Positions 11,532-22,020 of a stretch of 64,000 nt of DNA are shown piece after piece. The DNA is taken from assembly GCA_027923505.1 (NCBI GenBank), contig BROI01000017.1, forward strand, positions 310,001 through 374,000, in the 5' to 3' direction. Below the pieces are notes generated by a model that worked only from the letters and a program-made list of their open reading frames with translations, had not been told where the DNA came from and did no database searches. The stretch is from Mayamaea pseudoterrestris (taxonomy: Eukaryota). Each line of letters starts with the position of its first letter. The stretch's first letter is position 1. Both the position numbers and the translations under genes were made by a program.

Positions 11532-12181
11532 CGAGGTGGCCGGTTCATGATGACGTGTTTAGCAGGTTTAATTTTTTTGAGCATCCCTTTGATATCCATT
11601 TTTGCGTGGCCAGCGAACAAGGCCATGATTCGCTTAACTTATAGGGAGTTCAGCAATTAGCAACAATTGGACGCCATAGTTGTATCAATGCTAAATCGCG
11701 AAGCTAAAGTGCATTGCCAACTTGGTCAATCAACCAGTGATGGTGATGATGAAATGACCTACAAGCTTAAGATACGATTATTCCTCTTTTGCCATTCTGA
11801 GTGTTTGCTCATTCTCATAGTTTGATATAATGATGTTAGGCAAACATGGGAGCGTACTCGAGTTTAAGGGAGTACTCCATAGTTTACAGTCTATAATTCG
11901 GTCGTGTTTGTTTATTTGTACATTGAATACTTATCATGAAATGACTCAGATACGCTCATTGATGCCTTACGTCAGCGTTTTAATTTCGATGGCGAGGCCG
12001 TTTGCCAGCGGATACCATCAACCATCAGCCCCACACGATGACGGCCGTTGCCTTCCATCGCTCGTAGCCCCCTGCCTCCTCCCTCCAACCTGCATCCAAC
12101 CCTTTTGTTCTGTGGCAGCGAAGTAAGATTTTGTCTCATCAGTTGCCGCTAGCCTCATCCATTTCGCCATCATTCGCCATC

Positions 12182-13054
12182 ATGCAGAAGAACGTGTGTG
12201 CCATCGCAGCCATGACGGCCCTTGTCCAGGGCACCCTGGCCTTTATGCCACTCCATCTTCGCGCCACTGTGCGTTCTAGTACATCGTCGAGCTTCATGTC
12301 CAATGGCGACGAGTCCACATCATGGTGGGGGCAGGCAGGTTCATTCAACGATGAACAAGTACAAACCTATGTAACGCCGCGCCGATCCAAACATGGCGCT
12401 CTTTACGACGGAGCTGATTCCATTATTGATTTAAGTAGATGGGACGATGGCACCTACGTCTATGACGAACCCTCCTATCGCAGCAGCACTGGCAGCGACA
12501 GCTCTTCCCGCGAGCGAAGCCATGACACATACGCTTCCTTTAGTCAACCATCTGATCGCAGCTACAACAATCAATACGCATACGCCGACGACCCACGCAC
12601 CTATCAATCATATTCTGGCTATGGCAACCGTCAAAGCGAGTTTTACGACGAGTCATCCGACTATGGCAAGAATTATTACGAAGAGCCCTACTTTGCTAGT
12701 GGTTACTCTGGTGAAAACTCTCGCAATCGCTTTGAATATGACGACGGCCATTACAATAGTCGACAATACTCAAATCAGAACCGCCAACGCTCGGGAAACA
12801 ACGATGAGTCCAGCTCATGGTGGGGCCAAAGTGCCGTGGTGAATGAGAATCAAGTGCAGACTTACGTCGGCAGCAGCGACTACTACCAGACTGACGCGCG
12901 CCCAGTGACGGAGTCCAACTCGTGGTGGTCGCAGGGAAACGTTTACAATGAGCAGCAGGTACAAACCTACACGCGGCCGTCGGCTGGTCAGTACTATGAG
13001 CCAATGCGAGATTACTATCGCGATGAGCAGCGAGAACCACAATACTACTACTGA
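12182..13054 (+). CDS. Plastid-targeted, low-complexity (Tyr/Ser/Asp/Gln/Asn/Gly-rich) disordered protein with 3 copies of SWW-x5-[FVY]N-x2-QVQTY
   Basis: Signal peptide MQKNVCAIAAMTALVQGTLA-FMP (ASAFAP-like) is followed by an Arg/Ser-rich transit peptide. Repeats lie at about 12320, 12815 and 12920. No globular domain is recognisable. Confidence 0.8.
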   Translation: MQKNVCAIAAMTALVQGTLAFMPLHLRATVRSSTSSSFMSNGDESTSWWGQAGSFNDEQVQTYVTPRRSKHGALYDGADSIIDLSRWDDGTYVYDEPSYRSSTGSDSSSRERSHDTYASFSQPSDRSYNNQYAYADDPRTYQSYSGYGNRQSEFYDESSDYGKNYYEEPYFASGYSGENSRNRFEYDDGHYNSRQYSNQNRQRSGNNDESSSWWGQSAVVNENQVQTYVGSSDYYQTDARPVTESNSWWSQGNVYNEQQVQTYTRPSAGQYYEPMRDYYRDEQREPQYYY

Positions 13055-13186
13055 GTAAATACAGTCGACCCCATATCCATCATAATCCACATTACTATTC
13101 GTCTCTTTGTTTACTTCTTTCGTCACTATCGAAGTACATGTAGTCGCTGCAAGGTGAGTTGTACAAGATAGCTTGGCCAAACCCTT

Positions 13187-13266
13187 TGACGTCGGTCCGG
13201 CACTCGCGGCTGACGTCACTAAGAGGTGCGGTTGGCGATTTTGAAAAACGATCACCATCATGACGC
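13187..13266 (+). promoter_or_regulatory. Cluster of CCRE/CRE-like bZIP elements upstream of the beta-carbonic anhydrase
   Basis: TGACGT at 13187-13192, palindromic TGACGTCA at 13211-13218 and TGACGC at 13261-13266, 210-290 nt before the ATG. These match the CO2/cAMP-responsive element hexamers known from the Phaeodactylum ptca1 promoter. Confidence 0.5.
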
Positions 13267-13474
13267 TAGCGGCGCTGCCGTCAAACAAGGAGTAGTGCAG
13301 CAAGACGACAGAGCGCGCCGACACTTTCTCCCTTGACAACGTTTTTGGGCTCTTCAAAGACCAGGCACTCGTACCAAAACCTCTTACCGTTTAGCAATTA
13401 ATCACCTCAAGCTGTTTACAAGAGAAGTTGATTTTTTAGAGCCAGGGACGCAATTAACCACTCTGGCATTAACG

Positions 13475-15667
13475 ATGAACACGAGGCAACTGTTGCTATG
13501 CTTTGCCGCAGTCTTGCAGGCACGCTATGTATCTTCGTTTCAGCCCCAGCCTTTATTATCGCATCGATTAAGAATGACAGAAGTAACAATGGCGTTGAAT
13601 GCTGAGAGCGACGAGAACTTTTCCGATATTCTAAAGGCCAATCAACAATGGAAGAATCGAATGCTAGCCAACAATCCCATGTATTTCAACATGATGAATA
13701 AGGAACAAGACCCAAAGTACTTGTGGATAGGTAAGTTGCATGCAGGCACTTCGCGACGCTCGCTGTTTGCTAAATTTCGAGAGTCACTCACCAGCCTATT
13801 ACCACTCCGTCCCAGGATGCACCGAAATGCGAATACCAGCGCATGATATTATTGGGCAAGATGCGAAAGATGTATTAGTATATCAGAACATGGCAAACAT
13901 GGTCTTGACGAATGACGCCAGCCTTCTGGCGGTACTGGATTATGCTGTAAAATCAAACATACAAGACGTTTTCGTTTGCGGCCACTATGACTGCAACAGC
14001 CTTCGATCCATGGCGATGCAACACCACCGGGGAATGCCTCTTGGAAACTGGCTGGGGAGTGTCCAGGACGTGTAAGTACACAATGATCATTTTTTGAGAG
14101 TGAATGAACTAGATCAACTCACACTTTTCTTCCATTTTCTCTCAGCTACCGACTCCATCAACAAGAATTGGACGCCATTGTCAATTCGGAGCAGCGACAT
14201 AGGCGGCTGGTTGAGCTCAATTCTCTTGAACAGTGCCGCAATCTGCAAAAGACTGGACTTTTGCGAGACAGCGTTCGTTTCCATGCATGCGTGTTTGATG
14301 CAGGCACTGGGGATCTGAAGCAAGTTAGTCAAGAGCCCGCTCGCGCAACGCACGACGCGCCGAGTGTTTCGACGAAAGAGCCTTTGAAGAAGGATGTGCC
14401 GTTGACACAGATGCTGCTGGGTAAGGCGAAACAATCGGCTGCCGCAGCAGACAATACGACGAGTTCAGACCCATTGCGAGCAACCCAGCAAGAATCTGCA
14501 ACGAAAAAGTTAGCTTCCGCAGAAAAGATTCCCTTGTCCAAAGTATCCCAAACTCCGACATTAGCGAAAGACTCAGCCGCTGTCCAATCTAATGAAAGGT
14601 CTGGCGCACCTCAGGAAATTCGACCCTTTTACGCAGAGAGGGGAAAGCGACCGTTCGCTGGCAATGGCAACGGTAACAAGCCAACGGAAGTCACCCAAAC
14701 AAATGGAAGTGTTGACGAGTTAAAAATGGAAGAAGAAGATGAACAGCGGGGATCGCGGTCGCAAGATAGGCAGCAACCGATACAAATGGAAGTAGCGGAT
14801 GAACAGCGGGGATCGGAATTACAAGCTAGGCAGCAACCGATGGAATATGTCGATCCTCGATGGGACCCTGAACTTGATCGGCAGCCAGAGCAGTATGACG
14901 ATTTTCAATACGACCAACCTCCATTTGACGACCGGGAAGATTTCCCGCCAATGCAAGGCTACCCAAGGGTAACGCCTGAGCCACAACGAAGCAGAGCCAA
15001 GCCAGACGCAGGGAGTAACGGAGCTTTCGACGAGGCCAATTCTTGGTGGGGTGAAACCTACGTCGTCAACAAAAACCAAGTACAAACCTATGTTAAGGTT
15101 CGTGAACAAAGTGACGCATATGATGATCCATACGACTTGGACGAGGCTGGGAACCGGCCTTTGAGCCCAGAAGGAATGAGGCTGCTAGTCGATGAAAAGA
15201 ACTCTCGTCGAGAAAGCGTTCCCTTAAATGATCCCGCGCAAGAACCAATGGGATCTTGGTGGAACAAAGGCAACGTATTTAACAAGGATCAAGTTCAAAC
15301 TTACGTAAAGCAGTCTCTTCGTGACATTGAGGAAGACGATAGACGCTTCGATGATTATGACGAATACAATAGTGGCTTGGACTATGCTGATGCTCTGGAC
15401 GATTACCGACCACCGCCGGAAGAATATGACCAGCGCATGTATGATACCAGAGAACAAGATCTCGGACCGCTTGGCTTTAATGAGGATTACCAAGACCAAA
15501 GGCAACAACTTCCTCGTCCGCCTCGCGACGAGCGAACAAAACCAACTGGTATAAACTTAACTGGAAGTGACGGTCCGGATTCATGGTGGGAAAAGGGAAG
15601 AGTCTATAACGAGGACCAAGTGCAAACTTATATAAAGAAAAGGCGAGATCCAGATGAGTCGAGATGA
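13475..15667 (+). CDS. Plastid-targeted beta-class carbonic anhydrase (divergent active site) with a long disordered C-terminal extension carrying 3 SWW...QVQTY repeats
   Basis: Introns at 13731-13815 and 14072-14145 restore QDPKYLWIG-CTEMRIP, VCGHYDC, WLGSVQDVYRLHQQELDAI and RRLVELNSLEQCRNL, all beta-CA signatures. Presequence ends VSS-FQP. Confidence 0.88.
14724..14841 (+). repeat. In-frame 60-bp tandem duplication within the CA tail
   Basis: aaatggaagaagaagatgaacagcggggatcgcggtcgcaagataggcagcaaccgat recurs 60 nt later as aaatggaagtagcggatgaacagcggggatcggaattacaagctaggcagcaaccgat. Confidence 0.9.
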
Positions 15668-15806
15668 GAGTTTCTAACCTTCTGTTACATTTAGTTACAT
15701 ATTTTTTTATCTCGCATTGAAGGTATGGTCAAAAAACATGCAGACAAATCGTCTAAAAATAAACATATTGAACGTTACTAATCATATACACTTTACTAAA
15801 TTGATA

Positions 15807-20419: not shown

Positions 20420-21144
20420 CTACGTGGCTGCTTTAATGGCTTTCATCATGGCTTCCGACAAAACGCTACTTGGATCCTTGTCTCCAGCGGGGTCATCCTC
20501 CGACTCGGCAACATGAATGACTTTGATGACTCCATCATCCGCATAAATGGCGTGACGCTTGCATCTATTATACAATCCCAATTCTTGCGGACCAGGATGA
20601 GTCATTTCCATGTCGAGTGCTCGCGTCAGATTGCCTGCTGGGTCCGCCATGAAAATGAGCATGGAAAGTCCAATCCTTTGATCCTTGGCCCAAGCCTGCA
20701 TGACGGCTGCATCATTTACCGCGTAAACAATAACATCACTGATTCCCAACTTGCGCAAGGCGTCTTGGTGCGCGAGATAGTCAGGGACTTGCTTTGTGGA
20801 TCAGGTGGGAGTGCTGTGTTAAAATGTGGAATTAAAAAAGCGTGCATGTTGTGAGCTTGAAATCCTATGATACCCAGCGTGCCAATTACGAGCAATACAA
20901 CTGCAATCACTTCAAGTGTAATGTATACTTACAAAGCTCCCGGCAATCCAAGCAAAAGAACCTTCTTTCCTTTCGCGTACTCGGCAAGGTTGTAATTCTT
21001 TGGTGGCCATCCAAGATGCAAATCCACCGACGGAAGCTTCTCGCCAACCGAGGCAAAGGACCGCAACCCGACGTGACGCGTCAAGCGTGACATTGACGCT
21101 TGATTCAAGAGAAACGTGGAGCTCCGGCAAAGAGCGCTCATCAT
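20420..21144 (-). CDS. Type II (Prx5-like) peroxiredoxin with in-frame TGA at the peroxidatic Cys; predicted selenoprotein, probably mitochondrial
   Basis: An intron at 20932-20814 (GTAAGT..CACAG) gives GLPGAF-TPT-[TGA 20803-20801]-STKQVPDY..VYAVND..AW..ADP..RCKR, in frame with ORF 20420..20758. The N-terminus is Arg/Ser-rich. Confidence 0.88.
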
Positions 21145-21312
21145 GGTGGAGTGGTGTGGTTGTGACGCATCGATCGAATGGTTCGCTTCGATCCTTCGAT
21201 GGAATGCTGTAGTCGTACCGGTACTGAATCTCAATGTCTTTCCGGTTTTTCTACGACATTACCATGACCGACGTCGAGACGCAGACCACTTCTTCTTCTT
21301 CTTCCTCTCACC

Positions 21313-22020
21313 ATGGCAGCCCTTGCGCAATCCAACAGGACACTCAGAATCTCAGCAGTGACTTTGCGGAGATCATCTAGCGTGATAGAGAGAATAAATG
21401 GATTTCATATTCGGTTCAGTTCGTCCGCGGGGTCACGCGTTGAACGACTCGGCGACCACCCCTACGGATCGCGACAATATCGGCTAGTCAATCGACAAGC
21501 GGAAACCGTCCTTGCGTCTATACATGCTCATCGCAACATCATATTCGGCGCCAGAGTTCATCAAGAAGGCTATTCGATGTCGAAAGCGTGTCAGACTCTT
21601 TTGATAGAAGCCGTTTTGGATGCTGGTTCCAATGGAGAGCAACCACAGTCAATGGCTGCCTTACACGGCCTTTGTGAATGGGTTGTTCAGCAGGGACTGG
21701 AACCTTCCAATTCAGCATCCAGCACGATTCAATCAATAACTGACAATATTCAGTTGGAAGCAGTGAAAGCCATTGCCACGAACACTCCTAGACCGGGACA
21801 TTCCGTCGTCGGACAAGGTACGCATCGCGATGCAGGCGATGCATGGGAGCATCTTGCTCGCGAGTTTGTCCAAAGCAAGGCTGCTACTGACAGTGACGAT
21901 GAATGTGTCTTGCACCAAAGAAATGGTGGACAACTTGTGGAGATTGAGCTCTTGGCCGACACGAAACCAGAGTATTTGCAGTCAGCGGGTGGAGCCATGG
22001 CAAGGTTCTTTCTCTTATAA
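21313..22020 (+). CDS. Hypothetical protein, possible mitochondrial presequence
   Basis: 235-aa ORF with an Arg/Ser-rich N-terminus, head-to-head with the peroxiredoxin. No family recognised. Confidence 0.65.
   Translation: MAALAQSNRTLRISAVTLRRSSSVIERINGFHIRFSSSAGSRVERLGDHPYGSRQYRLVNRQAETVLASIHAHRNIIFGARVHQEGYSMSKACQTLLIEAVLDAGSNGEQPQSMAALHGLCEWVVQQGLEPSNSASSTIQSITDNIQLEAVKAIATNTPRPGHSVVGQGTHRDAGDAWEHLAREFVQSKAATDSDDECVLHQRNGGQLVEIELLADTKPEYLQSAGGAMARFFLL

What the first reader, a model, noticed from the sequence alone, without database searches (positions are those of the whole stretch)
12182..15667. Two-gene plastid module sharing an unrecognised SWW-x5-[FVY]N-x2-QVQTY repeat: candidate pyrenoid/condensate system
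Seen: two adjacent, co-oriented genes with otherwise unrelated sequence each carry three copies of an 18-aa motif with invariant spacing. The first gene has SWWGQAGSFNDEQVQTYV, SWWGQSAVVNENQVQTYV and SWWSQGNVYNEQQVQTYT. The beta-CA tail has SWWGETYVVNKNQVQTYV, SWWNKGNVFNKDQVQTYV and SWWEKGRVYNEDQVQTYI. Spacers are disordered and unconserved, and codons differ between copies, so conservation is at the protein level. Both genes have ASAFAP-type presequences. Known: pyrenoids assemble through disordered linkers with repeated Trp-containing sticker motifs (Chlamydomonas EPYC1, whose Rubisco-binding motif is shared by other pyrenoid proteins; Phaeodactylum PYCO1), and Phaeodactylum beta-CAs PtCA1/2 are pyrenoidal. 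Inference: the motif is a multivalent docking or 'zip-code' element that co-recruits a scaffold and a CA to Rubisco or another plastid structure. I do not recognise it as a described motif.
Basis: partly seen in the sequence, partly recalled or inferred. Interest (0 to 1): 0.92.

Follow-up and report, generated by a model that had tools for sequence, protein, structure and literature searches.

The report
Shared hairpin motif: diatom scaffold plus anhydrase
Two neighbouring genes of a freshwater diatom, one for a disordered tyrosine-rich protein and one for an unusual carbonic anhydrase with a long disordered tail, carry the same rare 25-residue motif three times each, which probably brings the two proteins together inside the chloroplast's CO2-fixing machinery, though no binding partner has been shown.

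Summary
The window is nuclear DNA of Mayamaea pseudoterrestris. Gene 1 (12182-13054) encodes an acidic, Tyr/Ser-rich protein predicted disordered. Gene 2 (three exons, 13475-15667) encodes a beta-carbonic anhydrase with a 443-residue disordered tail. Spliced contigs show two separate transcripts. The motif extends to about 25 residues, [DT]E[SA]xSWWGx3V[VYF]NxxQVQTY[VTI]KxR, and is modelled as a beta-hairpin at low confidence. It is very rare: six other proteins among 1.84 billion representatives, one a CA fragment with five copies. It matches no Pfam family, solved structure or paper. F-type plastid presequences are conserved. The CA promoter carries the same three elements, in the same order, as the CO2-responsive PtCA1/2 promoters. 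Best reading (0.4): a multivalent docking motif recruits both proteins to one stromal hub, probably the pyrenoid. Cautions: the proteins are acidic, unlike known linkers. The CA domain is strongly diverged, with the catalytic Asp replaced by Glu. No partner, localisation or wider zip-code use is shown.

The parts
12146..13090 (+). Gene 1 transcript, as covered by spliced-run contigs
   Evidence: Contigs of X2-X4 cover 12146/12155/12216 to 12861 and on to 13068-13090, with nothing at 13143-13269.
12182..13054 (+). Gene 1 CDS, single exon, 290 aa (P0001). Acidic Tyr/Ser-rich protein predicted disordered, with 3 motif copies
   Evidence: ORF. pI 4.64, Y 11.4%, S 15.5%. AF2 mean pLDDT 38.7. No Pfam family at E<=1. 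Orthologues P0002-P0004.
12182..12301 (+). Gene 1 bipartite presequence: hydrophobic signal peptide, TLA|F site after residue 20, then a Ser/Thr/Arg-rich stretch free of acidic residues
   Evidence: A [small]-x-A|F site is present in 4 of 4 gene-1-like proteins that have a hydrophobic N-terminus.
12320..12373 (+). Motif copy 1 of gene 1 (SWWGQAGSFNDEQVQTYV)
   Evidence: AF2 strands at residues 52-55 and 59-62, low confidence.
12371..12481 (+). Conserved block of gene 1 (residues 64-100). Ends in SRWDDGTYVYDEPSYR, which looks like a degenerate extra motif copy
   Evidence: Near-invariant in P0001-P0004. RWD pattern.
12815..12868 (+). Motif copy 2 of gene 1 (type A: SWWGQSAVVNENQVQTYV)
   Evidence: AF2 strands at 217-221 and 224-227.
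12920..12973 (+). Motif copy 3 of gene 1 (type B: SWWSQGNVYNEQQVQTYT)
13187..13266 (+). Promoter cluster upstream of gene 2: TGACGT (13187), TGACGTCA (13211-13218), TGACGC (13261)
   Evidence: It is the only ordered TGACGT..ACGTCA..TGACGC triple in the window. It has the same elements and order as CCRE1-3 of PtCA1/2 (passage in PMC7378808). It lies 51-130 nt upstream of the 5'-most spliced-run contig end at 13317.
13317..15745 (+). Gene 2 transcript, as covered by spliced-run contigs
13475..13730 (+). Gene 2 exon 1: presequence (VSS|FQP) and start of the CA domain
13731..13815 (+). Intron 1 (85 nt, GT..AG)
   Evidence: Skipped by contigs in X2, X3 and X4.
13816..14071 (+). Gene 2 exon 2: CA core with zinc ligands C87, H142 and C145. 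The active site reads C-T-E-M-R (E89 at 13824-13826)
   Evidence: Pfam PF00484, 55.9 bits against a cut-off of 25.7. Alignment to 1DDZ. 8 of 8 homologues with this region read C[SA]DAR.
14072..14145 (+). Intron 2 (74 nt, GT..AG)
   Evidence: Skipped by contigs in X2, X3 and X4.
14146..15667 (+). Gene 2 exon 3: end of the CA domain and the 443-residue acidic disordered tail (from about 14336)
   Evidence: Tail pI 4.60. Tail pLDDT about 30-45.
15041..15094 (+). Motif copy 1 of the CA tail (type A: SWWGETYVVNKNQVQTYV)
15254..15307 (+). Motif copy 2 of the CA tail (type B: SWWNKGNVFNKDQVQTYV)
15581..15634 (+). Motif copy 3 of the CA tail (type B: SWWEKGRVYNEDQVQTYI), 10 residues before the stop

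Best explanation
Both genes encode proteins imported into the plastid stroma of the diatom Mayamaea pseudoterrestris. Gene 1 gives an acidic, Tyr/Ser/Arg-rich intrinsically disordered protein. Gene 2 gives a CO2-regulated, sequence-diverged beta-carbonic anhydrase whose catalytic domain is followed by a 443-residue acidic disordered tail. Each carries three copies of one ~25-residue element, [DT]E[SA]xSWWGx3V[VYF]NxxQVQTY[VTI]KxR, which is prone to form a beta-hairpin. I propose that this element folds on binding and docks onto one multivalent stromal hub, most likely the Rubisco matrix of the pyrenoid. With three or more copies per chain, the disordered protein would act as a cross-linking scaffold, and the CA would be held in the same assembly by the same sites. 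Shown here: gene structures, transcription, motif conservation and rarity, predicted disorder, presequence pattern and promoter elements. Inferred: stromal location, hairpin fold, multivalent docking, the identity of the hub, and CO2 regulation.
For: (1) Six copies sit in two otherwise unrelated proteins, conserved at the protein level and not the codon level. (2) Across 8 proteins I count 25 copies; 24 have full flanks. In those, W1, W2, T15 and Y16 are 24/24, S0, V13 and Q14 are 23/24, Q12 and E-3 are 21/24, and N9 is 20/24. Flanking spacers are only 26% identical in the CA tail. (3) The CA-plus-motif-tail architecture recurs in a second organism: P0006 has the C-terminal CA part plus 5 copies. 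(4) Both proteins are predicted disordered outside the CA domain, and the only secondary structure AF2 places in gene 1 is hairpins on motifs 1 and 2. (5) Plastid-type presequences with Phe at +1 occur in gene 1, gene 2 and 3 of 3 further relatives with intact N-termini. That Phe at +1 marks stromal import in diatoms is recalled knowledge (the ASAFAP rule). (6) The link to the CO2-concentrating mechanism rests on two points. The CA domain belongs to the beta-CA family. In Phaeodactylum, the sequenced sister of Mayamaea, the beta-CAs PtCA1/2 are pyrenoidal (passages). Also, the gene 2 promoter holds TGACGT, ACGTCA and TGACGC in the order of the CO2-cAMP-responsive elements of PtCA1/2. This is the only such ordered triple in 64 kb, and P is about 0.009 for 3 or more sites in a given 250 nt. 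(7) Both genes are transcribed. (8) Lineage-restricted linkers and stickers are the rule for pyrenoids: PYCO1 is reported as not conserved, and no linker is known in Thalassiosira (passages).
Against: No binding, localisation or CO2-response data exist. Diatom Rubisco sequences could not be obtained, so nothing was tested against Rubisco or PyShell. All motif proteins are acidic (pI 4.2-5.9). The known Rubisco linkers are basic, and pI>8 is a search criterion of the FLIPPer pipeline (passage). The motif has no likeness to the PYCO1 stickers or the Chlamydomonas motif. In the searchable proteomes no other Mayamaea protein carries the motif, so it is not a general pyrenoid address. Both faces of the putative hairpin are conserved, which fits self-assembly at least as well as surface docking. 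The CA domain is unusually diverged: 42 of 103 family-invariant positions are changed, against 1-11 for each of 8 relatives, and the catalytic Asp is Glu. It may therefore not be a normal enzyme. Adjacency is seen in one genome only. The gene 1 promoter has just one such element.
Confidence: 0.4

Rival explanations
1. Self-associating sticker. The hairpins pair with one another, homotypically or between the two proteins, into small beta-sheet oligomers. The Tyr/Arg-rich gene 1 protein and the CA tail would then co-condense on their own into CA-rich bodies. Rubisco would not be the direct ligand.
For: Both faces of the putative hairpin are conserved (W1/T5/V7/V13/T15/V17 and W2/V8/Q12/Q14/Y16). 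The motif is private to this protein pair in the searchable Mayamaea proteome. Gene 1 is 13% Tyr and 7.5% Arg after the presequence. Oligomerising stickers have a precedent in the PYCO1 KWSP tetrad (section 10 of PMC10288592). The strand QVQTYVK resembles short amyloid-forming segments (recalled).
Against: AF2 did not bring the three hairpins of gene 1 together (pTM 0.16). Strict conservation of polar residues (N9, Q12, Q14, T15) is more typical of specific recognition than of generic beta pairing. There are no data.
Confidence: 0.25
2. Docking to another plastid structure, such as the PyShell lattice or the surface of pyrenoid-penetrating thylakoids. This would tether the CA and an adaptor protein at the pyrenoid boundary or membrane.
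For: The motif has the aromatic-plus-basic character of interfacial binders (WW, Y, K-x-R). PyShell proteins are beta-sheet rich and act as interaction hubs (passages). The presequence and promoter evidence is the same as for the best explanation.
Against: The acidic DES stretch directly precedes every copy, and the proteins are strongly acidic. Both argue against binding anionic thylakoid lipids. Nothing was tested against PyShell.
Confidence: 0.15
3. Pieces of one discontinuous folded domain. The three hairpins of a chain fold together into a small beta domain with long disordered loops, so the motif is structural and not a multivalent sticker.
For: Six of the eight proteins have exactly three copies.
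Against: P0006 has five copies and P0004 has two. AF2 gives no compact assembly, with pTM 0.16 and 0.34 and motif pLDDT below 50. Spacers run up to 165 residues.
Confidence: 0.07
4. Not a plastid system. The signal peptides lead to secretion, and the aromatic hairpins bind cell-wall carbohydrate or biosilica matrix. This would anchor an external CA and a Tyr-rich wall protein.
For: Short beta-hairpin repeats with conserved aromatics are typical of cell-wall and carbohydrate-binding repeats, and acidic Ser/Tyr-rich IDPs occur in diatom walls (both recalled). External CAs are part of many CO2-concentrating mechanisms.
Against: Phe at +1 of the predicted cleavage site occurs in 5 of 5 proteins with intact N-termini, followed by transit-peptide-like stretches free of acidic residues. 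There is no Pfam cell-wall repeat match at E<=1. The proteins lack Lys-rich silaffin-like segments.
Confidence: 0.05

Closest known systems
PYCO1, the Rubisco linker of Phaeodactylum tricornutum (PMC10288592)
   Same: Both come from naviculoid diatoms that are sisters among sequenced genomes. Both are lineage-restricted repeat proteins with Trp- and Tyr-containing stickers in low-complexity, prion-like sequence. In PYCO1 the stickers can oligomerise. Both have plastid presequences.
   Different: There is no sequence likeness: KWSP, GTGYNP and EW[GA]SMN are absent from all 8 motif proteins. PYCO1 stickers are helical; this motif is modelled as a beta-hairpin. As I recall, PYCO1 is positively charged; these proteins are acidic. 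The PYCO1 sticker is reported not to occur on other Phaeodactylum proteins except its own short isoform, whereas this motif is shared with an enzyme.
PtCA1/PtCA2, the pyrenoidal beta-CAs of Phaeodactylum
   Same: They belong to the same enzyme family (PF00484). A C-terminal extension decides the sub-plastid location; for PtCA1/2 it is an amphipathic helix (passage). Their promoters carry TGACGT, ACGTCA and TGACGC close to the transcription start (passage).
   Different: Here the extension is a 443-residue IDR with three hairpin motifs, not a helix. The CA core is strongly diverged, with Asp replaced by Glu in the CxDxR signature. Orthology to PtCA1/2 was not tested because no PtCA sequence was in hand.
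Shared Rubisco-binding motif of Chlamydomonas (EPYC1 and other pyrenoid proteins) and of Ulva (SUPA1 plus 4 proteins)
   Same: The logic is the same: one short motif occurs on a multivalent disordered scaffold and on client proteins, giving co-localisation (passages).
   Different: The motif, fold and charge all differ. Here only two proteins per genome carry it, so it is a private pair and not an organelle-wide address.
CsoSCA and CsoS2 of the alpha-carboxysome (PMC10614612, abstract)
   Same: A carbonic anhydrase is tethered through an intrinsically disordered segment to the same hub site on Rubisco as the disordered scaffold protein.
   Different: That system is bacterial. The abstract states that the two proteins use substantially different motifs, whereas here the motif is the same on both. 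Rubisco binding is not shown here.

Membership tests
Beta-carbonic anhydrase (Pfam PF00484 Pro_CA) | Profile match above the curated cut-off | tested here: met
   Exon 2 alone scores 55.9 bits against a cut-off of 25.7. PF00484 is precomputed for P0005. The best PDB match is 1DDZ at E 1e-68.
Beta-carbonic anhydrase (Pfam PF00484 Pro_CA) | Cys-His-Cys zinc ligands (C in CxDxR, H and C in HxxC) | tested here: met
   C87, H142 and C145 are present.
Beta-carbonic anhydrase (Pfam PF00484 Pro_CA) | Asp-Arg dyad of the CxDxR signature | tested here: not met
   The site reads C-T-E-M-R (Glu89). 8 of 8 homologues that cover this region read C[SA]DAR, and the 1DDZ alignment shows CADSR. Arg91 is kept. 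The effect on activity is unknown.
Beta-carbonic anhydrase (Pfam PF00484 Pro_CA) | Alpha/beta fold of the catalytic domain | tested here: inconclusive
   AF2 models residues about 50-232 with block-mean pLDDT 50-92 and alternating helices and strands. No fold search was run.
Sticker-and-spacer Rubisco linker (EPYC1, CsLinker, SUPA1, PYCO1 kind) | Three or more repeated short structured motifs separated by disordered spacers | tested here: met
   3 copies per protein. Spacers have pLDDT below 50.
Sticker-and-spacer Rubisco linker (EPYC1, CsLinker, SUPA1, PYCO1 kind) | Basic protein (pI>8, a FLIPPer criterion quoted) | tested here: not met
   pI is 4.44 for mature gene 1, 4.60 for the CA tail, and 4.2-5.9 for all relatives.
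Sticker-and-spacer Rubisco linker (EPYC1, CsLinker, SUPA1, PYCO1 kind) | Binds Rubisco and condenses it; localises to the pyrenoid matrix | not testable with these tools
   No diatom Rubisco sequence could be obtained, and no localisation data exist.
PYCO1 family | KWSPRGGS, GTGYNP or EW[GA]SMN motifs | tested here: not met
   0 matches in 8 of 8 motif proteins.
Diatom bipartite plastid presequence (ASAFAP type; rule recalled) | Hydrophobic signal peptide, small residues at -3/-1, Phe at +1, then a hydroxylated, basic, acid-free stretch | tested here: met
   Gene 1 reads TLA|F, with no acidic residue in the 22 residues from Phe+1. Gene 2 reads VSS|F, with its first acidic residue at E36. P0002, P0004 and P0019 also have x-A|F. 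This was checked by regex and by eye only; no predictor was run.
CO2-cAMP-responsive promoter of PtCA1/2 (CCRE1-3) | TGACGT, ACGTCA and TGACGC in order, close upstream of the transcription start | tested here: met
   The elements sit at 13187, 13213 and 13261, which is 51-130 nt upstream of the 5'-most spliced-run contig end. This is the only ordered triple in the window. The reference arrangement of -86 to -42 comes from a passage of PMC7378808.
CO2-cAMP-responsive promoter of PtCA1/2 (CCRE1-3) | Transcription rises at low CO2 | not testable with these tools
   No CO2-series expression data were available.
Cell-wall or choline-binding hairpin repeats (e.g. Pfam CW_binding_1) | Profile match | tested here: not met
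   No Pfam family at E<=1 for gene 1 or for the tail exon.

The most novel reading that the evidence does not exclude
A self-contained, lineage-specific 'CA condensate' system. An acidic Tyr-rich scaffold and a catalytically remodelled beta-CA would co-assemble through an oligomerising beta-hairpin sticker. That sticker class is unlike any helical, basic pyrenoid or carboxysome motif. The CA tail would have arisen by fusion with a scaffold-like gene; the shared order of motif subtypes (A first, B last) in both arrays points that way. It would be the first eukaryotic case in which scaffold and carbonic anhydrase use the identical sticker, and the first acidic linker.
Probability: 0.2. Interest if true: 0.8.

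Novelty: new variant of a known kind. Interest (0 to 1): 0.62.

Why it matters
How diatoms build their pyrenoid and place carbonic anhydrase in it is largely unknown. One linker, PYCO1, is known in one species, and none is known in Thalassiosira (passages). This locus offers a compact, directly testable candidate in a small-genome freshwater diatom that its genome paper suggests may serve as a freshwater model. It consists of a 25-residue motif, one scaffold-like protein and one enzyme client, with a promoter resembling the known CO2-responsive one. If the motif binds Rubisco or self-assembles, it adds a new sticker chemistry (acidic context, beta-hairpin) to the toolbox for engineering CO2-concentrating condensates. 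It would also show how an enzyme can be captured by fusing it to a piece of scaffold. If the motif does neither, the Asp-to-Glu CA with its rapidly evolving core is still an unusual beta-CA worth assaying.

Tried and rejected
1. The whole genome of the window is not held. The motif could therefore not be searched in the full Mayamaea genome or proteome.

2. Synteny in relatives. Two metagenome scans with motif alignments matched 66 stretches each. The only confirmed locus, L001, is a bacterial transposase-like ORF with a chance VNKKQVQTY. So whether a gene-1-like gene lies beside the CA in P0006's organism remains unknown.

3. Complex prediction. I sent a dimer of the CA domain, one tail motif segment and one gene 1 motif segment. 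The verdict was 'no answer' (score 0.00, controls not run, my alignments not used). It counts neither for nor against binding.

4. AF2 of full-length P0005 and P0001 showed no confident docking of motifs onto the CA domain or onto each other. With shallow alignments (13 and 6 rows) this is uninformative.

5. Protein Atlas: best feature score 0.79, below any useful level.

6. Earlier scan findings: nothing relevant.

7. The look-up of sequencing runs listed no holder on record as RNA. The spliced joints in X2-X4 nevertheless show processed transcripts. Depths were not used to rank expression.

8. PDB profile search with the motif gave only two chance hits, at E 2.1 and 3.4.

9. Likeness to the PYCO1 large-subunit helix AAEWGSMNQ was considered because of the W-G...hydrophobic-N pattern. 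I rejected it: the spacing differs by three residues, that motif is helical, and the regex gives 0 matches.

10. Supplements of PMC9724779: the two files held as text contain neither gene id nor 'carbonic anhydrase'. Its lists of differentially expressed genes and its HECTAR localisation predictions, if they exist in other files, were not seen.

11. The CsoS2/CsoSCA system was first recalled as a 'shared motif'. The abstract says the motifs differ, so the analogy is limited to a shared hub.

Full report
**What is there**

The window is eukaryotic nuclear DNA with about 49% GC. The deposited protein identical to gene 2 is named by its source as a hypothetical protein of Mayamaea pseudoterrestris (P0005). 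This is a freshwater raphid diatom. Its genome paper places it as sister to Phaeodactylum tricornutum among sequenced diatoms (passages of PMC9724779).

- **Gene 1** is a single exon, 12182-13054, encoding 290 aa.
- **Gene 2** has three exons: 13475-13730, 13816-14071 and 14146-15667. I read the two GTAAGT..CAG introns from the DNA. The resulting 677-aa product equals P0005.
- **Transcription.** Contigs of three coded runs (X2-X4) skip exactly these introns. They cover 12146-13090 and 13317-15745 but not the stretch between. Both genes are therefore transcribed, as separate messages. A fourth run (X1) covers the introns and the intergenic DNA.
- **Surroundings.** The neighbouring genes are ordinary housekeeping genes: a GDI/REP-like gene upstream, a GFO/IDH/MocA oxidoreductase downstream, then APC10, ClpS, ELP3, PLD and others. 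No other gene recognisable by Pfam as part of the CO2-concentrating mechanism is nearby.

- Pairs of copies share 9-14 of 18 residues, and 2-11 of those identical residues use different codons.
- I collected every copy from all relatives: 25 copies in 8 proteins, 24 of them with full flanks. This extends the element to about 25 residues: [DT]-E-[SA]-x-S-W-W-G-x-x-x-V-[VYF]-N-x-[DN]-Q-V-Q-T-Y-[VTI]-K-x-R.
- W1, W2, T15 and Y16 are invariant (24/24). S0, V13 and Q14 are 23/24.
- Two subtypes exist. Type A reads SWWG.T.VVN. Type B reads SWW.[QK]G.V[YF]N. In gene 1, in the CA tail and in P0006, the last copy is always type B. This suggests that whole arrays share ancestry, for example by fusion of a scaffold-like gene to the CA. 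That scenario is inference.

**Rarity and relatives**

- A profile of the six copies, searched against 1,835,955,588 representative proteins, finds six proteins at E<=0.001.
  - Three are gene 1 orthologues (P0002-P0004).
  - Two are shorter three-copy proteins (P0018, P0019).
  - One is P0006, a gene model cut short at the N-terminus. It holds the C-terminal part of a beta-CA followed by a long acidic tail with five copies.
- All six come from unnamed metagenome or run assemblies.
- The window's own two proteins were not listed, so that library may not show Mayamaea proteins.
- The word-indexed search, which does hold them, returned only P0001 and P0005 from this species (6 hits among 318 candidates). 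That search missed P0006, so it is leaky.
- By the scores, about 43 bits per copy, a single good copy would still have been significant. Within what could be searched, the motif is therefore private to this protein pair and a very narrow clade.
- There is no Pfam family and no PDB sequence. The only paper holding 'qvqty' is an unrelated coatomer paper, and no paper combines two of 'swwg', 'vqty' and 'pyrenoid'.

**The proteins**

Gene 1, after its presequence, has pI 4.44, with 13% Tyr, 16% Ser and 7.5% Arg.
- AF2 with 6 aligned relatives gives mean pLDDT 38.7. The only secondary structure is two hairpins, exactly on motifs 1 and 2. I treat the hairpin as a low-confidence model.
- Residues 64-100 form a block nearly invariant among orthologues. 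Its end, SRWDDGTYVYDEPSYR, looks like a degenerate further copy.

Gene 2's catalytic domain is a beta-CA: PF00484, best solved relative Porphyridium 1DDZ, AF2 block-mean pLDDT 50-92. It is atypical in two ways.
- The CxDxR signature reads C-T-E-M-R, whereas 8 of 8 homologues covering that region read C[SA]DAR.
- 42 of the 103 positions invariant in eight related beta-CAs are changed. The same leave-one-out count gives 1-11 for each of those eight.
- The zinc ligands and the Arg are kept. The partial CA of P0006 keeps the canonical residues at the positions I compared by eye (185, 197, 214, 216). The acceleration therefore seems specific to the Mayamaea branch.

The tail (residues 235-677) has pI 4.60 and pLDDT about 30-45 throughout. 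Aligned to P0006, it is 26% identical outside the motifs and 72% identical inside them.

**Location**

- Gene 1 and three relatives with intact N-termini have a hydrophobic N-terminus, then [small]-x-A|F, then a stretch free or nearly free of acidic residues.
- Gene 2 has V-S-S|F-Q-P with the same features.
- Phe at +1 is the hallmark of diatom stromal import. This ASAFAP rule is recalled; no predictor was run.
- Five of five is hard to reconcile with plain secretion, so I rate the cell-wall rival low.

**Link to the CO2-concentrating mechanism**

- In Phaeodactylum the beta-CAs PtCA1/2 are pyrenoidal. They depend on a C-terminal amphipathic helix for that location (passage of PMC11142338).
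- Upstream of gene 2 I find TGACGT (13187), TGACGTCA (13211-13218) and TGACGC (13261). They lie 51-130 nt before the 5'-most spliced-run contig end.
- This is the only such ordered triple in the window. It is one of three clusters of 3 or more sites per 100 nt, against 0.56 expected per 64 kb. For a given 250-nt promoter, P(3 or more sites) is about 0.009.
- Gene 1's upstream region has a single site.
- This is suggestive evidence, not proof, that gene 2 is regulated like PtCA1/2.

**Mechanism**

The layout matches the sticker-and-spacer logic of pyrenoid and carboxysome assembly: short conserved elements that probably fold on binding, in three or more copies, in long disordered chains, on both a scaffold-like protein and an enzyme.
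- PYCO1: passages and section 10 of PMC10288592.
- Review passages in PMC13655443.
- The Ulva preprint's shared motif.
- CsoSCA tethered to Rubisco by a disordered segment (abstract of PMC10614612).

I therefore favour (0.4) a shared docking motif that brings both proteins to one multivalent stromal hub, with the Rubisco matrix as the leading candidate.

The main rival (0.25) is that the hairpins bind each other. Both faces of the hairpin are conserved, the motif is private to the pair, gene 1 has a Tyr/Arg-rich composition, and PYCO1 sets a precedent for oligomerising stickers.

Lesser rivals are docking to PyShell or thylakoids (0.15), a discontinuous three-hairpin domain (0.07) and a secreted cell-wall anchor (0.05).

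Three facts argue against a simple 'diatom EPYC1' reading. All these proteins are acidic, whereas known linkers are basic. The motif is unrelated to the PYCO1 and Chlamydomonas motifs. The motif is not spread over other proteins.

**What could not be done**

- No diatom Rubisco or PyShell sequence could be obtained.
- The genome is not held.
- The contigs of the relatives could not be fetched.
- The one complex job gave no answer.
- Localisation, binding and CO2 response are all untested.

**Verdict**

The sequence observation is real, accurate and undescribed. I class it as a new variant of a known kind of system, of good but not exceptional interest.

Noticed in passing
window 13187-13266: TGACGT, TGACGTCA and TGACGC lie within 80 nt just upstream of the CA transcript. 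They have the same elements and order as the CO2-cAMP-responsive CCRE1-3 of the Phaeodactylum PtCA1/2 promoters.
   Followed up: partly
window 13818-13832 (residues 87-91 of gene 2) and the whole CA domain: The beta-CA signature reads C-T-E-M-R instead of C-x-D-x-R. 42 of 103 positions invariant in eight related beta-CAs are changed. This may be an altered or weakened enzyme.
   Followed up: partly
window 12434-12481 (gene 1 residues 85-100): SRWDDGTYVYDEPSYR, inside the most conserved block of gene 1, looks like a degenerate extra motif copy. In 5 of 6 distinct non-motif Trp sites in the disordered parts of these proteins, the Trp is followed by Asp (SRWDD, YRWDD, PRWDP, GPWDP, ISWDM; the sixth, SRWARS in P0006, was read by eye). 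This could be a second small Trp motif.
   Followed up: partly
window 14738-14839 (gene 2 residues 369-402): There is a short tandem duplication in the CA tail: DEQRGSRSQDRQQP and DEQRGSELQARQQP, 6 residues apart.
   Followed up: no
window 21074-21168: A second cluster of four TGACGC sites lies upstream of an ORF without a Pfam family (21313-22020). It was not examined further.
   Followed up: no
window 12000-15800: The contigs show two haplotype-like variants, for example 11 differences in 14312-14569. None of the 40 listed differences falls inside the six motif copies, but 32 further differences were not shown.
   Followed up: no
P0004 residues 248-270: This orthologue has two copies. The start of copy 2 is joined directly to the end of copy 3. 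It is either a deletion by recombination between copies or a gene-model artefact.
   Followed up: no
L001 1703-1933: The only locus from the metagenome scan is a bacterial transposase-like ORF with a chance VNKKQVQTY. It is not a relative.
   Followed up: yes
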